From the IMG/VR virus record IMGVR_UViG_3300022205_000002: a stretch of DNA of 59,926 nucleotides, one strand, 5' to 3'. The position numbers were made by a program, and so were the translations under genes. Positions 1-59,926 of the stretch are shown in pieces (positions within the stretch are counted from its first letter, which is position 1; each line of letters opens with the position of its first letter). Source of the DNA: a virus. The notes below the pieces were generated by a model that was not told where the DNA came from, ran no database searches, and saw only the letters and a program-made list of their open reading frames with translations.

Positions 1-127
1 AAGAGGCATGATGTCGGCGGCCTTGTAAAGCTGACCGGTCTCATACATTGCGGATTTAATCTCTGCCGCAATCTGCGGAGTGAGCAAGAATCCGCCTTCA
101 CTAGATACCAAAGTATTAGAGCCAGAC
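1..127. repeat. Terminal direct repeat (contig-end overlap) identical to 59800-59926. Indicates a circular or circularly permuted genome.
   Basis: aagaggcatgatgtcggcgg...agtattagagccagac occurs exactly at both ends. The capsid reading frame is continuous across the join. Unique length is 59,799 bp. Confidence 0.95.
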
Positions 128-6420: not shown

Positions 6421-6612
6421 ATATTGCATAATATTGCATAATATTTCATATTGGCAACATATTGGCATGCCAATATGAATCAACCCATTGAAAACTAAAA
6501 AGTTAAGCCCCGATTTTTGCCTGTATATTGGCATACTATATATATAGGGCAAAAAGAAAAATAAAAAAATTTTTTTTCAAAACTGCCAATATGCCAATAT
6601 GCCAATATGATA
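6421..6612. promoter_or_regulatory. Motif cluster of hub 1: ATATTGCATA direct repeats, ATATTGGCA/TGCCAATAT sites in both orientations, an A/T tract, and a 3x TGCCAATA tandem
   Basis: ATATTGCATA x2 plus ATATTTCATA at 6421-6450. ATATTGGCA at 6448, 6459 and 6525. Perfect palindrome CATATTGGCATGCCAATATG at 6458-6477. TGCCAATA x3 with 8-nt period at 6584-6608. Bases 6535-6610 are about 85-90% identical to 39657-39733. Confidence 0.6.
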
Positions 6613-6655
6613 GCCTCTAACCTATTATATATAAAGGGATTAACTCATATTGGCT

Positions 6656-6750
6656 CCATATTACTACTATTATTACCGCCTTTTTTGAACACTATCGTAT
6701 TGAAAATAAAAGCCTTTTAGTTTTATCACCCATATTACTACTATTATTAC
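6656..6750. repeat. Pair of 21-bp direct repeats, CCATATTACTACTATTATTAC
   Basis: Exact copies at 6656-6676 and 6730-6750, inside the 575-bp non-coding hub. Confidence 0.85.
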
Positions 6751-8760: not shown

Positions 8761-9639
8761 CTAACTCGCTTTCTTTATAAAATCAAAACCCGGAACATCG
8801 ATAAAATGCGCATGTCCTCCGTGGGCTATAGCGAACGGCAACGGTGGCATTTCATTATAGTGCAAGTAATATGCGACTTGGTGAAAGTGAGACAGGAACA
8901 TTTTAACAGCGTAGCGTCGCGCCCTTGCGTGAATATGCGCCGGTGGCAATTTTCCAGCGGTATAGTATTTATAAGCGTCGGTATCTTTGCCTATTCGCTT
9001 ATTAGCCAGTACCGCTTCGGCTTGCGCTTTAAACGCCAACGTATCATTAAGCGCTATCTCTTTCAGCTTTTTAGTTTTGTAAAGTTTGCCATAAAATGAC
9101 TTTTCATTATTTGAAGTCTTTACGAACGCCTCGCCCATCTTCCAGCATAGCGCTTTCAGTTCAGCGTTCCATGGCCGCTTCTGTCCTTTCTCCCATTTTT
9201 GTATACGCTCATTCGGCATGCCCTGATACTCTTGGCACGGGCCGTTTATACCGGCGTAACTCCATATGTGACCCGCCGTAGGCGCTTTGGTTATATCGAT
9301 ATGGGCTATCAATCCGGCGGCGATCACCGGCCCGATTCCTATATTATTCCTTGCCCATTGTCCCAGTTCACTACTTTTAGTGTAAATATCTAATGCAAGT
9401 TTTATCTGGTTTTCCAGTGTGTGATTGTTTTTACTGAACCAATTTAACACCTCGTGTGGCTCTGTAGATTCCTGCAAACTGCGAATCTGGTTATCTGTCA
9501 TGATGCGCCTGTCTTGCATTGCGTAGTATGAAGCGACAAGGAAGCGCGCCTCATTGATGCTGATACCGCTAAGCGCTTTTTTCAAGTCCTTATTCAGTTT
9601 TACTACTGATTCCAATTCTGTCTGCTCTGTTGTATTCAT
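8761..9639 (-). CDS. Helix-hairpin-helix protein resembling only the C-terminal (Transposase_20) domain of IS110-family recombinases
   Basis: 292 aa. NIGIGPVIAAGLIAHIDITKAPTAGHIWSYAGINGP...KRPWNAELKALCWKMGEAFVK resembles the IS110/IS116/IS902 C-terminal pattern. No DEDD/RuvC-like N-terminal domain was recognised, and the Ser-Gly region is replaced by an insertion. Confidence 0.35.
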   Translation of the reverse strand: MNTTEQTELESVVKLNKDLKKALSGISINEARFLVASYYAMQDRRIMTDNQIRSLQESTEPHEVLNWFSKNNHTLENQIKLALDIYTKSSELGQWARNNIGIGPVIAAGLIAHIDITKAPTAGHIWSYAGINGPCQEYQGMPNERIQKWEKGQKRPWNAELKALCWKMGEAFVKTSNNEKSFYGKLYKTKKLKEIALNDTLAFKAQAEAVLANKRIGKDTDAYKYYTAGKLPPAHIHARARRYAVKMFLSHFHQVAYYLHYNEMPPLPFAIAHGGHAHFIDVPGFDFIKKAS

Positions 9640-12364: not shown

Positions 12365-12388
12365 TTTTTCCTCATGTTATTGTTATAG

Positions 12389-12647
12389 GTCATTCATGTT
12401 TTTTGTTACTATCTTAAGCTATGATTCATTCTCGCTTTTCTGTTACCATCTAGGGGCATGATTCATTCTCGCTTTTCTGTTACCATCACTTAGCTTGATT
12501 CATTCGCATTTTATGTTACTGTCTCATATTCTGATTCATTCTGTTAAATGTTACTCTCCGGTATCTGATTCATTCCTGATTAATGTTGCTATCTTTTTGC
12601 CTGATTCATTCCCTGATCTTGTTACTATTTCCACACCTGATTACTTA
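12389..12647. repeat. Iteron array: about 8 direct bipartite repeats, TGATTCATTC-N7-9-TGTTAC, with a 33-37 bp period
   Basis: TGATTCATTC starts at 12422, 12459, 12496, 12532, 12566 and 12602, with degenerate copies at 12389 and 12638. TGTTAC follows 17-19 nt later. Units 2 and 3 are identical over 30 bp. The array fills a 280-bp non-coding gap. Confidence 0.85.
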
Positions 12648-15172: not shown

Positions 15173-15320
15173 ATCAATAAATTCAATCACTTAGCAAAGC
15201 AGCGTTATCGAAACATTGAATAAAACGTTTAACAGTATAACGAAACGATAGCCAAAACGTTCAATTGTGCATATCCTGGAAACTGGCTGTTATGTAACTG
15301 CTTGTAAATCAATGGTTTAT

Positions 15321-15401
15321 ATTTTTGGTATTTTGGCATGGTGTATGCAACTATATATAAGTATGAGAAACGAGAATAACGAAAAAGGAAAAGGGGATAA
15401 G
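15321..15401 (+). promoter_or_regulatory. Conserved promoter/leader cassette, copy B (plus orientation)
   Basis: TTGGCA (15333-15338), a 17-nt spacer, TATAAG (15356-15361), then TATGAGAAACGAG...GGAAAAGGGGATAAG and the ATG at 15402. Confidence 0.5.
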
Positions 15402-15584
15402 ATGGACTATACAAAATACAACAACATGATAGACGGAACCATGGTGGGCGTTTATGAGTGGACTGATAAACACGGTAATAAAACATACGAGGCGACGACA
15501 TTCGCACAGACGAAAACTTTTAAGACTGCCAGTGCGGCCTTGAAGTGGTTTGAGCGACATGCCCCAAAGTCTTTGCTTAAGTAA
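15402..15584 (+). CDS. Hypothetical protein (60 aa)
   Basis: Start taken at MDYTKYNN, directly after the conserved GGGGATAAG leader. Confidence 0.5.
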   Translation: MDYTKYNNMIDGTMVGVYEWTDKHGNKTYEATTFAQTKTFKTASAALKWFERHAPKSLLK

Positions 15585-15588
15585 GATC

Positions 15589-15900
15589 ATGAGCGCAATA
15601 AACTATGAAAAGCTGTATAGAGCGTGGGGGATAACTGCGACTGTTAAAAAACATCCGGAAGGGCATAAAGATACATGGTTGATCAGCTTTAGCTTTGGAA
15701 CTTCCAACATTATCTGCTGCGAATGGTGGAAGATAGACGGTAAGCCAAGATGGGAAAATGTTTTGACGCATTACATACAGCGCATAAACGAAGGCTCCTC
15801 AACATCTTTATGCAAAGATATAGAGAATGAATTGTGCATCATTCAAAAACCCTATCATTTTGGTATTTTGGCACGAATAGTGTATCTATATAAGGTATGA
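15589..15900 (+). CDS. Hypothetical protein (103 aa)
   Basis: Start taken at MSAINYEK. Its 3' end reads through cassette copy C. Confidence 0.45.
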   Translation: MSAINYEKLYRAWGITATVKKHPEGHKDTWLISFSFGTSNIICCEWWKIDGKPRWENVLTHYIQRINEGSSTSLCKDIENELCIIQKPYHFGILARIVYLYKV

Positions 15901-15935
15901 GAAACGAGCAGAATAATAAAGGAAAAGGGGATAAG
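15856..15935 (+). promoter_or_regulatory. Conserved promoter/leader cassette, copy C (plus orientation)
   Basis: TTTTGGTATTTTGGCACGAATAGTGTATCTATATAAGGTATGAGAAACGAG...GGAAAAGGGGATAAG, then the ATG at 15936. Confidence 0.45.
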
Positions 15936-16127
15936 ATGAAACAGAATAAAAAAGTAAGCTTTGTAAAAGCTATCTTAAAAAACAATAATGACATGTGGAA
16001 CATCTATAGCGGTATTACAAAGTCGCCGAAGGTTTTGGACACAATTATCAATAGCGCGTTGGAAAACAATCTGCATCGCATGAACAGCACTATTACGATT
16101 GCATATATCGCTTACATGACTAAATAA
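15936..16127 (+). CDS. Hypothetical protein (63 aa)
   Basis: Start taken at MKQNKKVSF, after the conserved leader. Confidence 0.5.
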   Translation: MKQNKKVSFVKAILKNNNDMWNIYSGITKSPKVLDTIINSALENNLHRMNSTITIAYIAYMTK

Positions 16128-16142
16128 GGAAAAAGGGATAAG

Positions 16143-16316
16143 ATGAGCAAGCGAATAAAAGAGCTAAAAGATAAAATCGAAAACTTGGAACTACGAGTAA
16201 ACGCAACGGCTCCGGGAACTCCGCTTCGCTACAGCGTCAAGCTAATAAATGAAATGCGCGAAGCCCAGATGGAGTTGGATGCTTGGACGGATCAACCCTG
16301 TAAAGATGACGAATAA
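16143..16316 (+). CDS. Hypothetical coiled-coil protein (57 aa), below the track cutoff
   Basis: Hand translation: MSKRIKELKDKIENLELRVNATAPGTPLRYSVKLINEMREAQMELDAWTDQPCKDDE. Preceded by GGAAAAAGGGATAAG. Confidence 0.45.
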   Translation: MSKRIKELKDKIENLELRVNATAPGTPLRYSVKLINEMREAQMELDAWTDQPCKDDE

Positions 16317-16335
16317 AGGAAAAGAGAATAAGGCG

Positions 16336-16602
16336 ATGGAATGGAACATCAATCACAAGATTAATGCTAGGCGCGATAACTATTATCTGCGCTTGTGTGA
16401 TTATAAGCGCATTTATTCCAAAATACAAGACACGCTCAACAATGATGGGATTGTACGGATTGTAAGTTACGGACATGTTCTGGAATGCTCTAAGAAGCAC
16501 GCTAGCATGTTTAGTTATAATTCTGGTGGTGTTTACATCGTAAGAGGGAAACGCCGCGAATCTATTATTGGCTGCACCATTGAACACTATAGCAATAAAT
16601 AA
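16336..16602 (+). CDS. Hypothetical protein (88 aa)
   Basis: Start taken at MEWNINHK, preceded by AGGAAAAGAGAATAAGG. Confidence 0.5.
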   Translation: MEWNINHKINARRDNYYLRLCDYKRIYSKIQDTLNNDGIVRIVSYGHVLECSKKHASMFSYNSGGVYIVRGKRRESIIGCTIEHYSNK

Positions 16603-28093: not shown

Positions 28094-28921
28094 TTATTTA
28101 AATAACGATTCTTGCATGATAGGCCTTATAAAAATACCGTTATTTTTAGGCCAGTATTCCATAACTTTGACATTATGATAATTTATCAGCGAATGATTCT
28201 GCAATAACTCTACTCTACTAGTGCCTGAAAAATCAAGTAAAAAATCATCGAATAGTTTTTTATTATTCTCGCTTAAATTATTGTAGTGATTGCTATCATG
28301 TTTATAACCCTTGCCTATAAAAATTCCTTTGCCGCTGATCGTTAAAACATGGCCCGCCCTACTTCCGAAACTCCAAGTTGATGAATCCACACTATAAAAG
28401 GGAAAGTCATTTAACAACTTACGGCGCGATATCCCGAAGCCGTGTATTTTTATTTTAGGTTTTCCAGAAGTATCACAAACATGATTAAATAACGACATTA
28501 GAAATTTATATTTAGCCTGACTTTTAAGCCTTGTCATATTCCCTACCGCTAGATATTTATAACCGGTTTCTATATATTTATCAAGCCACTTAAAGTCACA
28601 CCCTGCATGAAAAACAGGGATAGGATAAATTCCCAAACGTTCTAATTCAATTTGGTTCTGGTATGTAATATCAGGATTGTTTGCTGGATCATCTATATTA
28701 GCATATAGTTGTATATTGTTATCTTTTATAAAATTAGCATAATCTGGTAGATTTACTTTCAGCCCTGTTTTACGCGCCGTATATGTTCCTGAATCTAAAA
28801 AGAAGTTATTTTGATGCGTTTTCAATGCCTTTATAGCTTTATTTTTATAGGCGTACGATTCTAGTACAGGGAAATTATCAAAGAATGAATCCCCGCTGGC
28901 CGATGCGTAGTATAAAATCAT
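28094..28921 (-). CDS. dpdA: DpdA-like DNA transglycosylase (TGT superfamily) for 7-deazaguanine insertion
   Basis: 275 aa. FFLDSGTYTA...PIPVFHAG...YLAVGNM...IHGFGIS...YSVDSSTW fits the phage DpdA motif order. It is translationally coupled to queE. Confidence 0.7.
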   Translation of the reverse strand: MILYYASASGDSFFDNFPVLESYAYKNKAIKALKTHQNNFFLDSGTYTARKTGLKVNLPDYANFIKDNNIQLYANIDDPANNPDITYQNQIELERLGIYPIPVFHAGCDFKWLDKYIETGYKYLAVGNMTRLKSQAKYKFLMSLFNHVCDTSGKPKIKIHGFGISRRKLLNDFPFYSVDSSTWSFGSRAGHVLTISGKGIFIGKGYKHDSNHYNNLSENNKKLFDDFLLDFSGTSRVELLQNHSLINYHNVKVMEYWPKNNGIFIRPIMQESLFK

Positions 28922-29535
28922 CTTATGCCTATATATTTATGGCCTTGCAACGAAAGCCTAACGCGATACAATTTACAAAGCTCCACTGTTTTCGATATAT
29001 TATGAAGATTATCGATATCACTTTTTACCAGCATAGGCTGAAGGAATACACCCTTGTTAGTCATAGGCGGAGGAACTAACCGTTTGGGTATAGGACTATT
29101 ATTAAATTCATAATTACAATCAATTAAATACTTCCAGTAAACAGCGTGATTCAAATAATATTCATTAACTTTATTGGTTTTAGGGGATACAACAATATCA
29201 CATTTATTTAATGTTTCTAGTTTAATATGAGCGTCGGGAGGGAGTACACCGTTAGTTTCTATTTGTACTTTGCCATACGGTAATAACGCTTCAATTAGAT
29301 ATGATATATTTTGTTTAAAAGGCTCCCCGCCTGTTATAACAAAAAAACTATTAACGCTGCATAGATCAATGGCATGCAGTATATCGCTTGTTGACATTGA
29401 AGTATAATCTACGTGATCAGTATCACAGAATTCACAAGTTAAATTACATCCGCTTAATCTTATGAACGTAGCAGGAACACCTGTAAACGGGCCTTCGCAT
29501 TGGATACTATAAAATATTTCGTTTACATTTAACAT
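28918..29535 (-). CDS. queE: 7-carboxy-7-deazaguanine synthase (radical SAM)
   Basis: 205 aa. NEIFYSIQCEGPFTGVPATFIRLSGCNLTCEFCDTDH closely parallels the N-terminus of bacterial QueE. Confidence 0.85.
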   Translation of the reverse strand: MLNVNEIFYSIQCEGPFTGVPATFIRLSGCNLTCEFCDTDHVDYTSMSTSDILHAIDLCSVNSFFVITGGEPFKQNISYLIEALLPYGKVQIETNGVLPPDAHIKLETLNKCDIVVSPKTNKVNEYYLNHAVYWKYLIDCNYEFNNSPIPKRLVPPPMTNKGVFLQPMLVKSDIDNLHNISKTVELCKLYRVRLSLQGHKYIGIR

Positions 29536-29954
29536 TATATAGAGGCTCCATATTCAGCATACGCTGATGATGTTTCCCACAATCGTATATTCAGCCAGTT
29601 CAAGTTATCGTGATTGCGCAAACCAAGTCTAAACAACTGCCACAAATTAGTGACTATATTTTCTGCTGTAGGAATATAATCAACTATAACTATTTTTAAC
29701 ATCAAGTTTTTTATTTCACTTATTAACGGGTCATCTTCGCTTATTATCAAAGCATGATCTAATGGAGCCGTAACAGCCATTATAATATTTTTTAAATCTT
29801 TAAAATCTAACAAAAATCCATTCTGTTTATCAAGTACTCCGCCTATAGTAACTTCCAGTTTATAGCTATGGCCGTGAATATTGCAGCAAGCTCCATCATA
29901 GTTAAATAATCTATGCGCCATTTCTATATTGTAAATTTTTGTTATTTTGAGCAT
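29535..29954 (-). CDS. queD: 6-carboxy-5,6,7,8-tetrahydropterin synthase
   Basis: 139 aa. EMAHRL...CCNIHGHSYKLEVTIGG...LLDFKDLK fits the QueD/PTPS family pattern. Confidence 0.85.
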   Translation of the reverse strand: MLKITKIYNIEMAHRLFNYDGACCNIHGHSYKLEVTIGGVLDKQNGFLLDFKDLKNIIMAVTAPLDHALIISEDDPLISEIKNLMLKIVIVDYIPTAENIVTNLWQLFRLGLRNHDNLNWLNIRLWETSSAYAEYGASI

Positions 29955-36458: not shown

Positions 36459-36926
36459 TCACCTGTTTTTAATCAACGCCATTATTTCGTCTACGGTTTC
36501 TTTGCAACAAATAAGCTCCTCTACACCCCTCACCAATAGAATTGAGTGATATTCTACGTTATGTGACGATATAAATGTAAAGCTTTCGTGGTGTTCTTCT
36601 TTTATAGAATAGATGTCTTCTATGCGAATGCAAATCTGCCTATCCTTTTTGTTATGTAAGAATATGAAATTTTTAACTATAAAGTTATTGACTTCAGCGC
36701 CGTATGAATAAGTGTAAAAAAGCTTGATGTATTTTATTATCTCGGCAACGGTTTCTGAACACTGTAGTGTATTAATATAACCATCACTGTGGTTATATAC
36801 GACTCTTGATTTAAGATCATTATCATAAACGCAATCAATCGATTCAAACAAGCATATATCACTTGCGCGGATATATGCTTTTTTTCCGAGATCGCAATTC
36901 AACAATATAAAGTCGTTCATATTCAC
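36459..36926 (-). CDS. Hypothetical protein (155 aa)
   Basis: Co-directional ORF. No motif recognised. Confidence 0.55.
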   Translation of the reverse strand: MNMNDFILLNCDLGKKAYIRASDICLFESIDCVYDNDLKSRVVYNHSDGYINTLQCSETVAEIIKYIKLFYTYSYGAEVNNFIVKNFIFLHNKKDRQICIRIEDIYSIKEEHHESFTFISSHNVEYHSILLVRGVEELICCKETVDEIMALIKNR

Positions 36927-37258
36927 CTATCCTCGTTGTATTCCGCTTCTTCTTCGGGTGATGCGCCGCCCGTGCCTTCCATCTCATTAAGCTTATCAGC
37001 AAGATACTTTTCCATCGCTTTCCATTTTCTACTTGCGTGCATCGGATCGCCGTCAATGCGTTTGTTTAAATCAATGACGCATTGCTCTAAGTCTTTCAGC
37101 GCTTGATAATAGCCAGTATCATGGCCGAGCCGGAGCAGTACATCGTTGCTGTCCACTTGCGCTGGTGTAGTCATTGTCTTTTCCTTTTTTATAGTTTCTT
37201 GCATTGCATCAACTATGCTTTGGAAAAATGGCGTTACAATTATAGGATACTCACTCAT
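36923..37258 (-). CDS. Hypothetical protein (111 aa)
   Basis: Starts 33 nt downstream of tRNA-like element 1, with AAAGGA upstream. Confidence 0.55.
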   Translation of the reverse strand: MSEYPIIVTPFFQSIVDAMQETIKKEKTMTTPAQVDSNDVLLRLGHDTGYYQALKDLEQCVIDLNKRIDGDPMHASRKWKAMEKYLADKLNEMEGTGGASPEEEAEYNEDR

Positions 37259-37291
37259 TGTTTTATCCTTTCTATACGTTAAATATAAGTT

Positions 37292-37423
37292 AAATCACCG
37301 GGGGCAGGATTCGAACCTGCTTGCAGACCTTCAGTGCCATACAACAGTCTGACCTTAGTAACTTCCGCGATCTCACAGCGGATATGGCTTAAGTCGTGTC
37401 CCACCACGCCGCCCCGGTGATTC
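37292..37423 (-). ncRNA. tRNA-like structured element 1 (not a canonical tRNA)
   Basis: On the minus strand, a 12-bp closing stem forms between GAAUCACCGGGG and CCCCGGUGAUUU. A perfect T-arm GCAGG-UUCGAAU-CCUGC abuts the 3' strand. There is a D-like hairpin CGUG-GUGGGA-CACG and two further hairpins, but no 5-bp/7-nt anticodon arm. Confidence 0.45.
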
Positions 37424-37428
37424 ATAAA

Positions 37429-37620
37429 TCAATCAAACTCCGCCTTGCAGCCGTAACCTTCAAATGCCATGGACTGCGCTTCCGCTCTGGAATAGGCGCG
37501 TAACTCTTTACCGCTTGGGCTTTCGCCGATGTAATACTTTGTCTTGTCTCCAAAGCCTCCCGTGTTCTTTTCGAAAAACTGGATAACCTTTGGTTTTGGT
37601 TTCTTAGTCGTGTTTGTCAT
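37429..37620 (-). CDS. Hypothetical protein (63 aa)
   Basis: Starts 28 nt downstream of tRNA-like element 2, with GAGAGGA upstream. Confidence 0.5.
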   Translation of the reverse strand: MTNTTKKPKPKVIQFFEKNTGGFGDKTKYYIGESPSGKELRAYSRAEAQSMAFEGYGCKAEFD

Positions 37621-37648
37621 TTTATCCTCTCTACGTTAAATATAAAAT

Positions 37649-37763
37649 AAATCACCGGGGGCAGGATTCCCACCCTGCTCCATAGACTTCATAAGGTAGG
37701 ATGAAGTCAGAAGCCATTCGCTTCCTTAACAAACCCAGCGCTACCACGCCGCCCCGGTGATTC
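37649..37763 (-). ncRNA. tRNA-like structured element 2 (same termini as element 1, unrelated core)
   Basis: The 5' ~28 nt and 3' ~20 nt are identical to element 1. The T-loop is degenerate (GCAGG-GUGGGAAU-CCUGC). The core hairpins are GAAGC/GCUUC and an 8-bp GACUUCAU/AUGAAGUC. Confidence 0.4.
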
Positions 37764-37781
37764 ATAAATCTTTATCTCTTC

Positions 37782-39546: not shown

Positions 39547-39639
39547 AATAATTTTTATTCTAAGCTATTAAATTTTATTGTAAGATTCAATACTATCATA
39601 AATCACCATCTCGGTCAACTAAAAAATTTAAAGGTTTCA

Positions 39640-39733
39640 TATCGCCATATTGCCTACACTATATATAGAGCGAAAAAGAAAAAATAAAAATTTTTTTTTC
39701 AAAACTGCCAATATTGCCAGTATGCCAATATGA
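39640..39733. promoter_or_regulatory. Hub 2 copy of the ~77-bp module (CTATATATA, A/T tract, TGCCAATAT-type triple site)
   Basis: 39657-39733 reads cactatatatagagcgaaaaagaaaaaataaaaatttttttttcaaaactgccaatattgccagtatgccaatatga, about 85-90% identical to 6535-6610. It lies upstream (minus sense) of the first early gene. Confidence 0.6.
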
Positions 39734-39767
39734 AGTCACATAACTATATATTAATAAAAGACTTTTA

Positions 39768-39820
39768 GCATATTGGCAATCGCGAAAGTGCCAGTATGAA
39801 AACCGCGATTGCCAATATGC
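39768..39820 (-). terminator. Perfect 17-bp inverted repeat built from the ATATTGGCA motif. A likely late-operon terminator and/or operator.
   Basis: GCATATTGGCAATCGCG (39768-39784) and CGCGATTGCCAATATGC (39804-39820) flank a 19-nt loop. The repeat begins 5 nt after the holin-like stop. On the minus strand it is followed by CUAAAAGUCUUUUAUU. Confidence 0.45.
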
Positions 39821-39825
39821 GCCGG

Positions 39826-40101
39826 TTATTTATCAACAGTTTTAGGAACTTCGTTCAGTTCAGCGCCTATATTTTTAGCCGCCGCCATAGCTGCATCGAC
39901 TTTGGACTGGCCGAAAACATAGACGGCGGTCACGATGCCAATAACCAGATCAGCGATGTACGGCGCTACCTGATCAACCACAGTAGGCGCAACCGGGCCA
40001 AGATACCTTGTAGCAATAGGCAGCAGGACAATCGCCACCATGGATATCAGGGTCATTTTGAATTTCTTGGAATCAAAAGCCTTTTTGTCATTGTAAAACA
40101 T
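39826..40101 (-). CDS. Holin-like protein (91 aa, two TM segments)
   Basis: MTLISMVAIVLLPIATRYL and IADLVIGIVTAVYVFG, followed by a charged C-terminus. It is the last gene of the late arm. Confidence 0.5.
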   Translation of the reverse strand: MFYNDKKAFDSKKFKMTLISMVAIVLLPIATRYLGPVAPTVVDQVAPYIADLVIGIVTAVYVFGQSKVDAAMAAAKNIGAELNEVPKTVDK

Positions 40102-50526: not shown

Positions 50527-51330
50527 CTACGCTGTAGGCTGTTCAAGCGGCCCTGTACCCTGAAAAGAATAATCATAAGTAACTGGGCTTCCCTTATCGG
50601 TACTCGCAGCAAGTCCGGTTATGACAGCCTGTCCACTCCATAGCGTTGTATCAGTAGTGTACTTTTCAGATAGCGCAAGATACTGAATAGAACCTATAGA
50701 CAAAGGCGCTCCTTCTTTCTGACCGCTAAAAGAGCCGCTCCACTGCGATACTCCAGCTATAAACTCCGACACCCCGTCACTTTGAAAATCTGTAGTATCA
50801 GCAGCGTCTACAGTGTAATCAATAGACCAAGTACCAATACCGGCGGTTTCGGCAAGAGCGTAAACGCTATCAACATCGAAAGTACCATCAGCAAGATCAG
50901 TTTGCTGATACAGACCAATAGATATTACAGAACCAAGCAAGGACGGATCAGACAGGCGCAGGACGCAATGCTTCCATACGTTGGCCGTTAGCGCCGGTAT
51001 CAGCAAATCCTCAAGAGGCGACGCTAGGGAGCCTGTATCGTCAATCTGGAAACGTAGATCACCCGCCGAAGTATTGACGCTTGATCGAATCCAAAAACTT
51101 ACAGCGTGATAAGCTGTAAGATTAAGCGAGACGACTTCGGACATTAGAATAGTAGTAGCTCCCACCGTTGTGGTAGTAGCTCTAACAGCGCTCCCGCCAT
51201 TTATATCCATGCCGGTAGTAGTAGACAACGCAACGCCACCGGTTACGGTTTCATTCCAAGTATCTTCGCAATCTTCCATCAACAATTGGGAGCCGAACGC
51301 GCGCCCTGTTTTTCCGTGAATAGCGGCCAT
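50527..51330 (-). CDS. Tail-tube-like protein, long paralog with an inserted ~145-aa domain
   Basis: 267 aa. The N-terminus MAAIHGKTG and the C-terminal ~110 aa (GIGTWSIDYTVDAADTTDFQSDGVSEFIAGVSQWSGSFSG...YDYSFQGTGPL) are shared with 51351..51719. Confidence 0.5.
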   Translation of the reverse strand: MAAIHGKTGRAFGSQLLMEDCEDTWNETVTGGVALSTTTGMDINGGSAVRATTTTVGATTILMSEVVSLNLTAYHAVSFWIRSSVNTSAGDLRFQIDDTGSLASPLEDLLIPALTANVWKHCVLRLSDPSLLGSVISIGLYQQTDLADGTFDVDSVYALAETAGIGTWSIDYTVDAADTTDFQSDGVSEFIAGVSQWSGSFSGQKEGAPLSIGSIQYLALSEKYTTDTTLWSGQAVITGLAASTDKGSPVTYDYSFQGTGPLEQPTA

Positions 51331-51350: not shown

Positions 51351-51719
51351 TTACGCAGTCGGTATTGTAAGAGCGCCAGTGCCCTGAAAAGAATAATCAT
51401 AAGCTACAGGACTTCCCTTGTCTGTGCTGGCTGCAAGTCCGGTTATGATAGCCTGTCCACTGAAAAGCTGATTGGCCGTATCAGATTCCTTAAGCACAAG
51501 AGCAATTTCAGAACCAATGGTCAAAGGCGCGCCGTCCTTCATTCCACTAAAAGAACCGCTCCATTGCGATACTCCAGCTATAAATTCTGATACTCCGTCA
51601 CTTTGAAAATCTGTAGTATCATCAGCGTTTACAGTATAGTCAACAGACCAAGTACCTATACCATTTACTTCAGAGCCGCCAACTGTAACAGCGCCTGATT
51701 TTCCGTGTAAAGCCGCCAT
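51351..51719 (-). CDS. Major tail tube protein candidate (122 aa)
   Basis: MAALHGKSG...GIGTWSVDYTVNADDTTDFQSDGVSEFIAGVSQWSGSFSG.... It lies after the tail-terminator-like gene and has an AT-rich promoter-like upstream region. Confidence 0.5.
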   Translation of the reverse strand: MAALHGKSGAVTVGGSEVNGIGTWSVDYTVNADDTTDFQSDGVSEFIAGVSQWSGSFSGMKDGAPLTIGSEIALVLKESDTANQLFSGQAIITGLAASTDKGSPVAYDYSFQGTGALTIPTA

Positions 51720-58974: not shown

Positions 58975-59926
58975 TTACGCCCTAGCGTCAAGAGTCACAA
59001 AGCTGGAAAGCCTATCGCCAGCATTAGCATTCTCCGGGGTAATCTGCTGCGCCAGCTTAGGCATACCGTTAATCCTCCAAGTAAATCTAAACATATGCTC
59101 ATTGGTATTAAACAGCACGTGCATAGATTCCGCCGCTTCGATTCCGCCCTTCTCTACCATCAAATACTCGTTCATGTTAGCGAGTATAATGTCGCCCTTG
59201 TCACCAAGCTTCGGACAAGCGTTGGTAGGAATAACGGGAAGTCCCAGCAAAGTAGCGTATGGAGTACCGGACATGCCACCTTCGGGCAAATACACGGGAG
59301 CGCCGCCAGTTCCTACGGCCATGACAAGGTTACGCAGTTCTTTCCTAGCGAACGGGTTAACGTGCCAAGCTGCGCCGGTCAAATAATCCGGGTCAAAAAT
59401 GTCAAACATTTTATCAATGTTTTCCTTGACAATAGTATCAGCTGGCTGTAGGTTTTCCTTAGCCACCGACACGGTGGAAGAAGCGTTGATAATACCAAGG
59501 CACTGGCCAGAACCGGTCCCCTGAATTATTTCACGATCCACCTTTTTATTCATGGCCTTTGGCGCGTCGTTCATGATCATGCGCTGGAGCGCCACCGCAT
59601 CGCCAAGAAGCTGCCTAGTAACAGGGACGCGAACCATCATATCCTTGACGGCAAGTTCACGCTCCCTAAACTGCGGCTTGGATGTAGTAGCGGCGACACC
59701 CTCATTCACACGGTACGCCACAATGCCGTTATAACTACCAGCGGTAGAGCGATCCTCGTTAACCGCCTCAACCCAGACGTAACGATCATTGCTACCGCCA
59801 AGAGGCATGATGTCGGCGGCCTTGTAAAGCTGACCGGTCTCATACATTGCGGATTTAATCTCTGCCGCAATCTGCGGAGTGAGCAAGAATCCGCCTTCAC
59901 TAGATACCAAAGTATTAGAGCCAGAC
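58975..59926 (-). CDS. Major capsid protein, HK97 fold, C-terminal part (continues from 441..1 across the contig junction)
   Basis: ...LVSSEGGFLLTPQIAAEIKSAMYETGQLYK...GGAPVYLPEGGMSGTPYATLLGLPV... is typical of the HK97 family. The track's 'M' at 59910 is an internal TTG. Confidence 0.9.
   Translation of the reverse strand, partial: SGSNTLVSSEGGFLLTPQIAAEIKSAMYETGQLYKAADIMPLGGSNDRYVWVEAVNEDRSTAGSYNGIVAYRVNEGVAATTSKPQFRERELAVKDMMVRVPVTRQLLGDAVALQRMIMNDAPKAMNKKVDREIIQGTGSGQCLGIINASSTVSVAKENLQPADTIVKENIDKMFDIFDPDYLTGAAWHVNPFARKELRNLVMAVGTGGAPVYLPEGGMSGTPYATLLGLPVIPTNACPKLGDKGDIILANMNEYLMVEKGGIEAAESMHVLFNTNEHMFRFTWRINGMPKLAQQITPENANAGDRLSSFVTLDARA
59800..59926. repeat. Terminal direct repeat, second copy of bases 1-127
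   Basis: An exact 127-bp match to the start of the window. Confidence 0.95.

What the first reader, a model, noticed from the sequence alone, without database searches (positions are those of the whole stretch)
37292..37763. Two tRNA-like structured elements with identical complementary termini and unrelated cores, each just upstream of a small early ORF
Read on the minus strand, both elements begin GAAUCACCGGGGCGGCGUGGU and end AAUCCUGCCCCCGGUGAUUU. The ends pair into an 11-12 bp closing stem (37292-37303 with 37412-37423, and 37649-37660 with 37752-37763). Element 1 has a textbook tRNA T-arm (GCAGG-UUCGAAU-CCUGC) abutting the 3' strand, plus a D-like hairpin (CGUG-GUGGGA-CACG). Its ~75-nt interior holds two other hairpins (UCCGC/GCGGA and CAGACU/GGUCUG) and no 5-bp/7-nt anticodon arm. 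Element 2 keeps the termini, but its T-loop is degenerate and its core is unrelated (GAAGC/GCUUC and an 8-bp GACUUCAU/AUGAAGUC hairpin). The flanks are conserved too: GAUUUAUGAA upstream and UAUAUUUAACGUA..AGA..GGAUAAAA-AUG downstream. Conserved ends with fully diverged cores point to selection on the fold or the ends, not on a peptide. Possible roles are RNase P/Z-type processing signals in the early polycistronic transcript, stable tRNA-mimic sRNAs (phage T4 encodes two stable tRNA-like RNAs of unknown function), decoys for tRNA-targeting host defences, or tRNA-derived recombination sites. A Fic gene lies three genes downstream.
Basis: partly seen in the sequence, partly recalled or inferred. 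Interest (0 to 1): 0.7.

Follow-up and report, generated by a model that had tools for sequence, protein, structure and literature searches.

The report
Phage tRNA-shaped RNA elements between genes
Two ~110-130-base elements between small genes of an uncultured 59.8-kb phage imitate the acceptor, D and T arms of a tRNA but have no anticodon arm; a second, distantly related phage carries two more with identical ends and unrelated middles, so this is a small new family of phage tRNA mimics whose role is untested.

Summary
On the minus strand, E1 (37296-37419) and E2 (37653-37759) share an identical 28-nt 5' block and 21-nt 3' block that pair into a 13-14-bp closing stem. Their cores are unrelated.

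They are not ordinary tRNAs. ARAGORN and Rfam find nothing at normal thresholds. ARAGORN's "intron-containing tRNA-Asn" call for E1 recurs in 34% of versions with a shuffled core.

One metagenomic relative, L168, carries two more elements (La, Lb) with again different cores. All four share an invariant CACCGGGGCGGCGTGG ... CCCCCGGTGATT, although the adjacent homologous gene is only 39% identical in protein. Lb is a clean five-helix cloverleaf shaped like a class-II tRNA, and its T-stem shows compensatory changes relative to E1. E2 and La have degenerate T-loops. A syntenic relative, L177, has no such elements.

Best reading (inferred, not shown): the elements are transcribed between cistrons and handled by host tRNA-processing enzymes (RNase P, RNase Z or E). 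This would cut the operon mRNA and release stable tRNA-shaped RNAs, as with T4 species 1 RNA and plant-mitochondrial t-elements. The invariant ends suggest a partner that reads sequence. Rival readings are a tRNA-mimic decoy, DNA recombination linkers, a generic mRNA structure, and decaying tRNA genes. I class it as a new variant of a known kind, of moderate interest.

The parts
37296..37419 (-). E1: tRNA-shaped element, from the 5' strand CACCGGGG to the 3' strand CCCCGGTG (8-bp acceptor-like stem). With leader/trailer pairing the closing stem extends to 37291-37424.
   Evidence: (110 bits with model R1)
37403..37430 (-). E1 5' conserved block GATTTATGAATCACCGGGGCGGCGTGGT: leader, acceptor 5' strand, connector and D-stem 5' strand. 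The 16 nt CACCGGGGCGGCGTGG are invariant in all four family members.
   Evidence: (D10)
37395..37408 (-). E1 D-like hairpin CGUG-GUGGGA-CACG, with GG in the loop
37321..37394 (-). E1 variable core. It holds hairpins UCCGC/GCGGA (37364-37382) and CAGACU/GGUCUG (37324-37351). Alone it is no more structured than shuffles (z +0.25).
37304..37320 (-). E1 canonical T-arm GCAGG-UUCGAAU-CCUGC (G53-C61, U54, A58 present). Together with the following CCCCGG it is identical to the 3' ends of real tRNA-Leu, Tyr and Asn genes (plus single Ser and Met calls).
37256..37295 (-). E1 AU-rich trailer with the conserved UAUAUUUAACGUA, then the ribosome-binding site AAAGGA and the AUG of orf111
   Evidence: (D15)
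37653..37759 (-). E2: second element with the same termini and an unrelated core. The closing stem extends to 37647-37765.
   Evidence: (106 bits)
37743..37770 (-). E2 5' conserved block, identical to that of E1
   Evidence: (D10)
37738..37749 (-). E2 shifted D-like hairpin GCG-UGGUAG-CGC. In the MFE fold it is a 6-bp helix that stacks directly on the closing stem.
37685..37724 (-). E2 core hairpins GAAGC-GAAUG-GCUUC (37710-37724) and GACUUCAU-CCUACCUU-AUGAAGUC (37685-37708). The core folds with z -1.9.
37661..37678 (-). E2 degenerate T-arm: stem GCAGG/CCUGC kept, 8-nt loop GUGGGAAU without the T-loop consensus
37618..37652 (-). E2 AU-rich trailer with UAUAUUUAACGUA, ribosome-binding site GAGAGGA and the AUG of orf63
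37429..37620 (-). orf63, the small gene flanked by E2 and E1. Its homologue in L168 (39% identity) is also followed by an element (La). The last ~18 nt are identical between the two phages.
36923..37258 (-). orf111, the first gene downstream of E1; no known family

Best explanation
E1 and E2 belong to a small family of tRNA-shaped RNA modules found in phages. Each has an acceptor-like closing stem stacked on a T-arm, a D-like hairpin with GG in its loop, and two variable hairpins where the anticodon and variable arms would sit. This is a non-canonical, class-II-like cloverleaf with no anticodon arm. The modules are transcribed on the sense strand, as part of a polycistronic mRNA, between the stop codon of one small gene and the ribosome-binding site of the next.

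Proposed mechanism, all inferred:
1. The host tRNA-maturation machinery recognises the acceptor/T-arm helix and the D/T elbow.
2. RNase P cuts at the 5' side, just after the upstream stop codon.
3. RNase Z, or RNase E in the AU-rich trailer, cuts at the 3' side.
4. The operon transcript is thereby punctuated into separate mRNAs, and a 105-125-nt tRNA-shaped RNA is released that may persist as a stable species.

The acceptor strands, the connector and the D-stem 5' strand are invariant in sequence rather than merely complementary. I therefore infer that a sequence-reading partner also binds the module or the released RNA. It could be a synthetase-like or other tRNA-binding host protein, a defence nuclease, or a phage protein.

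Shown: the anatomy, its conservation, its strand and its position. Inferred: transcription, cleavage, stability and the partner.
For: 1. The repeat is real and not chance: both terminal words occur twice, 0 expected, and the folds have z -3.5 and -6.0.
2. tRNA-specific features sit in the right geometry on the coding strand only. E1 and Lb have T-arms with the UUCGAAU / UUCGAUA loop, G53-C61, U54 and A58, directly abutting a 7-8-bp acceptor-like stem. All four D loops contain GG. With shuffled cores a 5-bp T-stem in register arises at about 0.02 per element and a T-loop match at about 0.002.
3. The E1 T-stem GCAGG/CCUGC becomes GUGGG/CCCAC in Lb, two double compensatory changes with the T-loop kept, and GUAGG/CCUGC (a G.U pair) in La. 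Several helices contain G.U pairs, which only work in sense-strand RNA (what the sequence shows directly).
4. Four elements in two phages share an invariant 16-nt block and a 12-nt block. The flanking orthologous gene is only 39% identical and the phages share otherwise only Fic.
5. No conserved peptide exists: the frames differ between copies.
6. The position is always stop codon, then at most ~25 nt, then the element, then an AU-rich tract, then a ribosome-binding site and AUG. This fits a punctuation signal. AU-rich trailers are the usual RNase E entry sites in bacterial tRNA precursors (established knowledge; cf. PMC2190699).
7. Precedents exist. T4 rnaC has the same build and the same weak Rfam tRNA-Sec score: 17.5 bits, against 16.3 for E1 and 19.4 for Lb. 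Plant-mitochondrial t-elements with the GGTTCRANYCC motif are cut by RNase P/Z to form mRNA ends and stable t-element RNAs (PMC1920247).
8. The cores of E2, La and Lb are more structured than shuffles (z -1.9, -1.5, -3.0).
Against: - There are no expression or cleavage data.
- There are only four sequences, and formal covariation is not significant (133 of 500 shuffles reach the observed value).
- E2 and La lack a T-loop consensus, and the E1 core is not unusually structured. The tRNA elbow is therefore not uniformly maintained.
- RNase P and RNase Z read shape, not sequence, so they do not explain the invariant acceptor and D-5' block.
- Pairing of leader with trailer (13-14 bp in E1 and E2) is expected to hinder RNase P (established knowledge).
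- The connector is 3 nt and position 8 is C rather than U, so the fold may differ from a true L-shape.
- The elements are dispensable: a syntenic relative lacks them.
- The host, and hence its processing enzymes, is unknown.
Confidence: 0.45

Rival explanations
1. Trans-acting tRNA mimic. The released RNA, or the module within the mRNA, is the functional product. It would act as a decoy or sponge that occupies a protein reading the acceptor end of a particular tRNA, such as a tRNA-targeting anti-phage nuclease or transferase, an aminoacyl-tRNA synthetase, the CCA-adding enzyme or EF-Tu. The middle of the molecule would be free to vary. Processing would only be the way it is made.
For: - Sequence-level invariance of both acceptor strands, the 3' neighbour base, the connector and the D-stem 5' strand in all four copies, despite 39% protein identity next door. 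This pattern is expected for identity elements read by a protein.
- The cores are unconstrained in sequence.
- The 3' module is identical to that of real class-II tRNAs and tRNA-Asn.
- T4 makes abundant stable tRNA-like RNAs of still unknown role (PMC3014915).
- Phage counter-measures against tRNA-directed defences are an active theme (PMC12851939, listed).
Against: - No anticodon arm is present, so anticodon nucleases are not plausible targets.
- E2 and La have lost the T-loop.
- No CCA is encoded.
- There is no evidence of abundance or stability.
- No tRNA-directed defence is known for the unknown host.
- The elements are absent from the syntenic relative L177.
Confidence: 0.2
2. DNA-level recombination linkers. 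The invariant blocks would be short homology or recognition sites at the borders of small accessory-gene cassettes. They would promote shuffling of these genes between phages, as with PeSL cassettes of T4-type phages, lambdoid boundary sequences or integron attC sites. The tRNA-like look would be a relic of their origin.
For: - The blocks are invariant in sequence, with no covariation in 10 closing-stem pairs.
- The elements flank small accessory ORFs in a hypervariable region. Distant relatives join the gp34-like gene directly to the primase gene. The syntenic L177 has other small ORFs there and no elements.
- Two otherwise unrelated phages share only orf63, Fic and the elements.
- Nucleotide identity peaks at the end of orf63 and at both blocks.
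- The same genome has other repeated intergenic cassettes in front of small genes (D5, D8 and D18).
Against: - This reading does not explain the strand-specific T-loop consensus, the GG in every D loop, the T-stem compensatory changes, the G.U pairs or the structured cores.
- No integrase or site-specific recombinase lies nearby; the only 'transposase'-like ORF is 28 kb away.
- The attC R'' box is not found at the opposite end of any element, and the R' box is absent in La and imperfect in Lb (sequence inspection).
- There are no target-site duplications.
- Blocks of 12-28 nt are short for homologous recombination.
Confidence: 0.12
3. A generic cis-acting mRNA structure not read as a tRNA. It could be an intercistronic stabiliser or barrier to exonucleases, a partial terminator or attenuator, or a device tuning translation of the next gene.
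For: - The closing stem is very stable and GC-rich, and is followed by a U-rich tract: AUUUAUUUUAUAUUU in E2 and AUUUGUUUUUAA in Lb.
- It always lies 25-45 nt upstream of the next start codon.
- E2 and La work without a T-loop.
Against: - The terminator scan does not call the closing stems.
- The ribosome-binding sites are not sequestered in the folds.
- A simple hairpin would serve such roles, so nothing would require the T-arm, the D-loop GG or invariant sequence.
Confidence: 0.1
4. Decaying tRNA genes: pseudogenes left from an ancestral phage tRNA cluster.
For: - The E1 3' module is identical to real tRNA genes.
- E2 and La look like damaged versions. La has a ~28-nt insertion inside the T-loop.
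- The cores drift freely.
Against: - Pseudogenes would not keep 28 nt invariant while the neighbouring gene fell to 39% identity.
- All four share one acceptor stem, unlike a set of different tRNAs.
- None keeps an anticodon arm.
- U8 is absent.
- The phage has no intact tRNA gene.
Confidence: 0.06
5. Real but unusual decoding tRNAs, for example carrying short introns or expanded arms.
For: - With introns allowed, ARAGORN calls E1 tRNA-Asn(GUU) with a 36-nt insert and a loop CUGUUGU that has U33 and a purine at position 37.
- The contig is deposited in an archaeal (Nitrosopumilus) MAG, and archaea splice tRNA introns.
Against: - The same ARAGORN mode calls a tRNA in 103 of 300 E1 versions with shuffled cores, and also 'finds' tRNAs spanning two elements with 328-397-nt 'introns'.
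- The insert is not at position 37/38.
- E2 and La give no call.
- Rfam tRNA models do not reach threshold.
- The gene content is that of a bacterial tailed phage with Shine-Dalgarno sites.
Confidence: 0.03

Closest known systems
Bacteriophage T4 species 1 RNA (rnaC; with rnaD, the two stable RNAs of the T4 tRNA region)
   Same: It is a phage-encoded RNA of about 120-140 nt with paired termini. A canonical T-arm (CCGGG-UUCGAAU-CCCGG) abuts the 3' strand, and internal hairpins replace an anticodon arm. It gets only a weak Rfam tRNA-Sec hit, 17.5 bits against 16.3 and 19.4 here. Its role is unknown (PMC3014915).
   Different: There is no sequence similarity: model R1 does not hit the T4 locus. 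T4 rnaC lies inside a cluster of eight real tRNA genes. The present elements sit singly between protein-coding genes of a phage with no tRNA genes. They form a family with invariant ends and unrelated cores.
t-elements of plant mitochondria (tRNA-like processing signals)
   Same: They are non-canonical cloverleaves that keep the GGTTCRANYCC T-arm motif. They are embedded next to mRNAs and are cut by RNase P and RNase Z, which makes mRNA 5'/3' ends and a stable small RNA (PMC1920247). E1 carries the motif exactly (GGTTCGAATCC).
   Different: They occur in organelles, not phages, and are not homologous. Cleavage has been shown experimentally there and is only inferred here. t-elements are not reported to share invariant acceptor sequences.
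Bacterial Y RNAs (YrlA)
   Same: They contain a tRNA-like module with a T-arm, a D-arm and an acceptor-like stem. Some have the very same T-arm sequence, for example the Chitinophaga locus L105.
   Different: The topology is circularly permuted. In the YrlA-type loci found here the acceptor stem is closed by a loop; by published description (my knowledge) the RNA ends lie in the Ro-binding helix and the gene follows rsr. Here the acceptor stem is open and holds the RNA ends. No rsr was seen and there is no Rfam hit.
tmRNA
   Same: The ends pair in an acceptor stem next to a T-arm, and the interior is non-tRNA.
   Different: There is no G3.U70, no tag reading frame and no pseudoknot series. The size is about 110-130 nt. 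ARAGORN tmRNA mode and Rfam are negative.
Viral tRNA-like precursors processed by host tRNA enzymes (gammaherpesvirus 68 TMERs; the MALAT1/mascRNA module)
   Same: A tRNA-shaped module embedded in a longer transcript recruits RNase P or RNase Z to define the ends of the neighbouring RNA and is itself released (from my own knowledge, not tested here).
   Different: These are eukaryotic systems and are not homologous.
PeSL mobile regulatory cassettes of T4-type phages, and integron attC sites
   Same: They are repeated, structured intergenic sequences that bracket small accessory ORFs in hypervariable regions. attC sites have conserved ends with variable middles (from my own knowledge).
   Different: No promoter consensus was found within the conserved flank. 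There is no IntI and no R''/R' boxes at both ends. The tRNA-specific features have no counterpart in those systems.

Membership tests
Canonical tRNA (Rfam RF00005 / ARAGORN) | Detected by tRNA finders or the covariance model at normal thresholds | tested here: not met
   ARAGORN finds 0 genes in the window and in the L168 region. Rfam at gathering thresholds gives 0 hits. At E<=10 only tRNA-Sec appears, at 16.3 and 19.4 bits against a gathering score of 47.
Canonical tRNA (Rfam RF00005 / ARAGORN) | Anticodon arm: 5-bp stem with a 7-nt loop, U33 and a purine at 37, one nucleotide after the D-arm | tested here: not met
   None of the four has one in place. The E1 candidate needs 36 nt removed at a non-canonical site. 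Shuffled cores give such calls in 34% of trials.
Canonical tRNA (Rfam RF00005 / ARAGORN) | T-arm: 5-bp stem ending in G53-C61, loop U54-U55-C56-R57-A58, directly 5' of the acceptor 3' strand | tested here: met
   Met by E1 (GCAGG-UUCGAAU-CCUGC) and Lb (GUGGG-UUCGAUA-CCCAC). Not met by E2 (8-nt loop GUGGGAAU) or La (about 28-nt insertion in the loop).
Canonical tRNA (Rfam RF00005 / ARAGORN) | 7-bp acceptor stem, 2-nt connector with U8, 4-bp D stem (3 bp in bacterial class-II tRNAs), A14 | tested here: not met
   The acceptor is 7-8 bp. The connector reads C-G-G (3 nt, with C at position 8) before the CGUG/CACG stem, and G replaces A14 (sequence).
Intron-containing (archaeal-type) tRNA | Intron at 37/38 or in a bulge-helix-bulge motif; host with a splicing endonuclease | tested here: not met
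   ARAGORN places the insert between the 5' strand of the stem and the loop. The false-positive rate is 29-34%. The phage gene content is of bacterial-phage type. The bulge-helix-bulge motif was not formally modelled.
tmRNA | tRNA-like domain with G3.U70, a tag ORF with resume codon, pseudoknots; detected by ARAGORN -m or Rfam | tested here: not met
   ARAGORN tmRNA search is negative. Rfam is negative. All acceptor pairs are Watson-Crick.
YrlA / bacterial Y RNA | Acceptor-like stem closed by a loop, RNA termini in a Ro-binding helix, gene next to rsr | tested here: not met
   The acceptor stem is open and bounded by genes. Contrast the loop-closed acceptor in L105 and L098. No Rfam hit. No TROVE/rsr gene was seen among the ORFs annotated, but that annotation is not exhaustive.
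T4 rnaC-type stable tRNA-like phage RNA | Phage RNA of about 120-140 nt with a terminal stem, a canonical T-arm abutting the 3' strand, and no anticodon arm | tested here: met
   The fold and Rfam behaviour of T4 rnaC match those of E1 and Lb.
T4 rnaC-type stable tRNA-like phage RNA | Sequence homology to rnaC/rnaD; location in a tRNA gene cluster | tested here: not met
   Model R1 finds nothing in the T4 locus L182. The window has no tRNA genes.
T4 rnaC-type stable tRNA-like phage RNA | Accumulates as a stable processed RNA in infected cells | not testable with these tools
   No expression data are available and the host is unknown.
t-element-type processing signal | Non-canonical cloverleaf with the T-arm motif GGTTCRANYCC, placed at mRNA boundaries | tested here: met
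   E1 has GGTTCGAATCC. Lb has GGTTCGATACC, one mismatch at the Y position. All four lie between a stop codon and the next ribosome-binding site. The motif definition comes from PMC1920247.
t-element-type processing signal | Cleavage by RNase P at the 5' end and RNase Z at the 3' end | not testable with these tools
   This needs in vitro cleavage assays or end mapping.
Integron attC site | R''(RYYYAAC)/R'(GTTRRRY) boxes at the two ends; an IntI integrase | tested here: not met
   GTTAAAT occurs only on one side of E1 and E2. It is absent in La and imperfect in Lb (sequence). No integrase was found.
MITE | Terminal inverted repeats, target-site duplication, and copies similar along their whole length | tested here: not met
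   Inverted termini are present, but there are no duplications at the borders and the cores are unrelated.
PeSL-like mobile regulatory cassette | Repeated promoter plus stem-loop flanking ORFs of a hyperplastic region | tested here: inconclusive
   The location fits. No convincing sigma-70-type promoter lies in the conserved flank, but phage-specific promoters cannot be excluded.

The most novel reading that the evidence does not exclude
The family is a natural 'tRNA scaffold'. An invariant acceptor/D/T frame would be matured by host tRNA enzymes and read sequence-specifically by one partner, for example an anticodon-independent synthetase or a defence enzyme that acts on tRNA acceptor ends. 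The frame would display interchangeable hairpins. Each copy would then be either a different decoy or effector RNA, or a sponge that protects host tRNAs during infection. This would be an RNA-based anti-defence or host-takeover device, and it could also explain the T4 species 1/2 RNAs.
Probability: 0.15. Interest if true: 0.85.

Novelty: new variant of a known kind. Interest (0 to 1): 0.58.

Why it matters
Phage tRNA genes are well studied. Phage RNAs that copy only the acceptor/T-arm side of a tRNA are known essentially from T4 (rnaC and rnaD), and their role has stayed unknown for about 50 years.

Here the same design recurs in an unrelated marine or sediment phage lineage that has no tRNA genes at all. 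It lies between protein-coding genes, and its ends are held invariant while everything else changes. That pattern separates which parts of the mimic are under selection (acceptor strands, connector, D-stem 5' strand, T-stem pairing) from which are free. It yields directly testable predictions: RNase P/Z cleavage sites, a stable RNA of about 110-125 nt, and a sequence-specific binding partner.

If processing is confirmed, this would be a bacterial-virus counterpart of mitochondrial tRNA punctuation and t-elements. If a partner is found, it may reveal a new RNA-based way for phages to deal with tRNA-directed host functions.

Practically, gene callers currently annotate E1 as a 48-aa hypothetical protein, which is spurious.

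Tried and rejected
1. Ordinary tRNA or tmRNA: ARAGORN and Rfam are negative.
2. Intron-containing tRNA: ARAGORN -i calls E1 tRNA-Asn with a 36-nt insert. It also of 300 E1 versions and 88 of 300 Lb versions with shuffled cores, and 'tRNAs' spanning two elements. Rejected.
3. Exact-word scans of IMG/VR (8 scans) gave only chance matches in coding DNA or distant protein relatives without elements.
4. blastn against deposited phages found nothing for the region. For Lb it found only short T-arm matches to phage tRNA-Cys genes.
5. The genome-contig scan with the 3' module returned real tRNA-Leu, Tyr and Asn genes (with single Ser and Met calls), archaeal intron-bearing tRNAs, one tRNA with an insertion and YrlA-type loci, but no family member.
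6. Protein anchors. The gp34-like protein and orf63 have no close relatives except the same phage. Nine contigs with Fic homologues hold no element, by regex and by covariance model R1.
7. Antisense or guide idea: the cores show no more complementarity to their own genomes than shuffles do.
8. Conserved leader peptide (MNHRGGVV): rejected, because frames differ in L168.
9. attC, MITE, retron, YrlA and self-cleaving ribozyme readings: defining features are absent (see membership tests; Rfam).
10. A link to phage enzymes acting on tRNA: no CCA-adding enzyme or RNA ligase was found among the ORFs annotated. A DpdA/TGT-like gene exists, but it belongs to the usual 7-deazaguanine DNA-modification set.
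11. The small flanking proteins have no PDB, Pfam, PHROG or PADLOC assignment.
Full report
**Observation.** Read on the minus strand, the window holds two elements. E1 spans 37296-37419, or 37291-37424 with leader/trailer pairing. E2 spans 37653-37759, or 37647-37765. They share an identical 28-nt 5' block, GATTTATGAATCACCGGGGCGGCGTGGT, and an identical 21-nt 3' block, AATCCTGCCCCCGGTGATTTA. An AU-rich trailer with a further conserved stretch follows, then the ribosome-binding site and AUG of the next gene (D10 and D15). Each terminal word occurs exactly twice in 59.9 kb, with none expected from shuffles. The ends pair into stems of 13 and 14 bp. The whole elements fold far better than shuffles, with z -3.5 and -6.0.

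**Context.** The window is a complete, circularly assembled 59.8-kb tailed-phage genome, with a 127-nt terminal overlap. Nearly all genes are on the minus strand.
- Identified genes include a T4-type large terminase, portal, MuF, prohead protease, tape measure, family-A DNA polymerase, SNF2 and UvrD helicases, an AEP primase, DNA methylases and a DpdA/QueD/QueE set.
- It is deposited inside a 'Nitrosopumilus' MAG, but everything about it is bacterial-phage-like.
- No nucleotide-level relative exists among deposited phages.
- The gene order on the minus strand is: gp32-like, DUF7307, gp34-like, E2, orf63, E1, orf111, orf155, orf69, Fic, primase, helicase.
- In distant relatives the gp34-like gene is followed directly by the primase gene. 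In a syntenic relative, L177, other small ORFs and a Fic gene fill this space and no element is present.
- The elements therefore sit in a hypervariable accessory region, about 2 kb downstream of a promoter-like, repeat-rich intergenic region.

**Not a tRNA, tmRNA or known RNA family.** ARAGORN finds no tRNA or tmRNA in the window. Rfam finds nothing at gathering thresholds. Locally at E<=10 it gives only a tRNA-Sec hit of 16.3 bits against a gathering score of 47.
- With introns allowed, ARAGORN calls E1 a tRNA-Asn(GUU) with a 36-nt insert at a non-canonical position. It calls E2 only at relaxed scores.
- A control removes the weight of that call. When only the core of E1 is shuffled, the same mode still calls a tRNA in 103 of 300 cases (88 of 300 for Lb). 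It even assembles 'tRNAs' from the 5' half of one element and the 3' half of the next.
- The call therefore reflects only the intact acceptor stem and T-arm.

**Relatives.** Other copies of the same phage from four samples are at least 99.7% identical and carry no informative variation in the elements. Eight IMG/VR scans found no family member.
- A metagenome scan for the paired termini gave nine chance hits in GC-rich coding DNA and one true relative, L168. L168 is a 5.9-kb contig with GC 0.42.
- L168 carries two elements, La and Lb, again separated by a small ORF.
- La follows a homologue of orf63 with 39% protein identity, so E1 and La occupy orthologous positions. The two phages otherwise share only Fic, at 54% identity.
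- All four elements have CACCGGGGCGGCGTGG and CCCCCGGTGATT without a single change. Their cores cannot be aligned. Nucleotide identity along the orthologous stretch peaks at the end of orf63 and at the two blocks.
- The upstream AUG and reading frame are not conserved, so no peptide is involved.
- Covariance model R1, built from the four elements, finds only these four (99-110 bits) in the window and 31 other loci.

**Anatomy across the family.** Lb folds by minimum free energy alone into a five-helix cloverleaf. It has a closing stem, a 2-nt connector (C-G in the MFE, which adds a G.U pair to the D stem; 3 nt, C-G-G, in the CGUG/CACG register used for the other elements), and a D-arm with an 11-nt loop containing GG. 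Two hairpins follow, then the T-arm GUGGG-UUCGAUA-CCCAC, then the 3' strand. This is the shape of a class-II tRNA, except that the arm at the anticodon position has an 11-nt loop.
- Relative to E1 (GCAGG/CCUGC), the Lb T-stem shows two double compensatory changes with the T-loop kept. La has GUAGG/CCUGC, with one G.U pair.
- Three of the four elements keep CACG opposite the invariant CGUG. All four D loops contain GG.
- With shuffled cores, a T-stem in register arises in about 2% of trials, a T-loop match in about 0.2% and a D stem in about 25%.
- E2 and La are degenerate mimics. E2 has an 8-nt loop without the T-loop consensus and a shifted D hairpin. La carries an insertion of about 28 nt inside the T-loop.
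- The cores of E2, La and Lb fold better than shuffles (z -1.9, -1.5, -3.0). The core of E1 does not (z +0.25).
- Formal covariation on four sequences is not significant.
- Several helices use G.U pairs, and the T-loop and D-loop signatures exist only on the coding strand. This points to sense-strand RNA rather than DNA.

**Origin of the 3' module.** The 23-nt T-arm plus acceptor 3' strand of E1 is identical to the 3' ends of genuine tRNA-Leu(CAA), tRNA-Tyr(GUA) and tRNA-Asn(GUU) genes, plus single tRNA-Ser and tRNA-Met calls, in many bacteria and archaea. The 5' side is not tRNA-like in detail. It has C instead of U8, a 3-nt connector and G at position 14. The elements are therefore mimics, not recent copies of a tRNA gene.

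Some of the non-tRNA hits from that scan proved to be YrlA-type Y-RNA loci, in which the acceptor stem is closed by a loop. That topology is the circular permutation of the one seen here, which excludes membership in that family.

**What it most likely does.** The features that are kept are the ones bacterial tRNA-maturation enzymes use (established knowledge): a 12-13-bp coaxial acceptor/T helix, the D/T elbow in E1 and Lb, and an AU-rich single-stranded trailer. The position is strictly intercistronic.
- The best-supported reading is that RNase P cuts at the 5' boundary and RNase Z or RNase E cuts at the 3' side. This would split the operon mRNA and release a tRNA-shaped RNA.
- Two precedents support it. 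T4 species 1 RNA (rnaC) has the same build and scores the same way in Rfam; its role is unknown (PMC3014915). Plant-mitochondrial t-elements are shown experimentally to work in this way (PMC1920247).
- Processing enzymes read shape, so they cannot explain why ten closing-stem pairs, the connector and the D-stem 5' strand never vary while the neighbouring gene diverged to 39% identity. That invariance calls for a partner that reads sequence. This keeps the decoy or mimic reading alive. It is also the main argument for the DNA-level rival, in which the blocks are recombination linkers at cassette borders.
- I put the processing-module reading at 0.45, a trans-acting mimic at 0.20, recombination linkers at 0.12, a generic mRNA structure at 0.10, decaying tRNA genes at 0.06 and true unusual tRNAs at 0.03.
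- No core shows excess complementarity to its own genome, so a cis antisense or guide role is unsupported.

**Novelty and verdict.** The family is absent from Rfam, from deposited phages and from IMG/VR. It is so far known from two phages only. In kind it belongs with the phage and organellar tRNA-like RNAs, T4 rnaC and the t-elements. It is a new variant for three reasons: it lies between protein-coding genes of a phage without tRNA genes, it occurs in several copies, and it combines sequence-invariant ends with unrelated cores. It is real, conserved and unexplained, but the evidence base is four sequences and no expression data. Interest is moderate (0.58). The decisive work is end mapping, RNase P/Z cleavage, a charging test, a search for a binding partner and a wider covariance-model search.

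Noticed in passing
window 1-127 and 59800-59926: An identical 127-nt terminal repeat indicates a circular, complete 59.8-kb phage assembly. The contig is deposited within a 'Nitrosopumilus sp.' MAG although its genes are of bacterial-phage type, so it is probably mis-binned.
   Followed up: partly
window 6440-6660 and 39560-39830: Two intergenic regions share an ~80-nt block. It has many ATATTGGCA/TGCCAATAT repeats, an A/T-run palindrome and CTATATATATAG. These are probably regulatory regions at the heads of two transcription units. The second is upstream of the gene block that carries E2 and E1 (D13/D16, 55, 102, 103).
   Followed up: partly
window 12386-12647: Five copies of a 36-46-nt repeat (TGATTCATTC...GTTACTATCT) lie where the minus- and plus-strand gene blocks diverge. 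They may be iterons or operators (D2/D6).
   Followed up: no
window 15318-16351 (+ strand): Three or four small plus-strand genes are each preceded by the same repeated upstream cassette: TATATTTTTGGTATTTTGGCA..., then GTATGAGAAACGAG...AAAGGAAAAGGGGATAAGATG. This is reminiscent of PeSL-type repeated promoter/RBS cassettes (D5/D8/D18).
   Followed up: no
window 28094-29954: A DpdA/queuine tRNA-ribosyltransferase-like gene (28094-28921), a QueE-like radical-SAM gene (28918-29535) and QueD/PTPS (29535-29954) form the usual phage 7-deazaguanine DNA-modification set. The syntenic relative L177 lacks them.
   Followed up: partly
window 8761-9639: A 292-aa ORF matches PHROG 4285, annotated 'transposase' (E 4e-55). 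It has a weak hit to the C-terminal domain of IS110-family transposases. It lies far from the elements.
   Followed up: no
window 37279-37425 (L043 7152-7298): Gene callers annotate E1 as a 48-aa protein. The ORF is not conserved in frame in L168, so the annotation is spurious.
   Followed up: yes
window 50528-50841 and 51352-51662: There is a partial tandem duplication (79-86% identity) between two adjacent genes in the tail/structural region (D1/D4).
   Followed up: no
L105 3600-4700 (Chitinophaga fulva); L098, L103, L123, L126, L064: Arrays or single copies of a T-arm, a loop-closed acceptor and a D-arm lie right after a protein gene. I judged these to be YrlA-type Y-RNA loci, from their anatomy and from recalling the upstream protein's C-terminus as Ro60/Rsr-like; I did not check that protein against any family library. 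Rfam did not score them at gathering thresholds.
   Followed up: partly
L076 275-410 and L153 2988-3123: Bacterial genes of about 125-136 nt have the same T-arm and a GGCCGGGG/CCCCGGCC acceptor. L153 scores as a tRNA (48 bits) despite an insertion of about 45 nt, so it is an insertion-bearing bacterial tRNA.
   Followed up: partly
L183/L184 5652-6683: An unrelated 56-60-kb phage carrying a Fic homologue encodes a CCA-adding-enzyme-like protein, an RNA ligase and RlaP, a tRNA-repair-type gene set.
   Followed up: no
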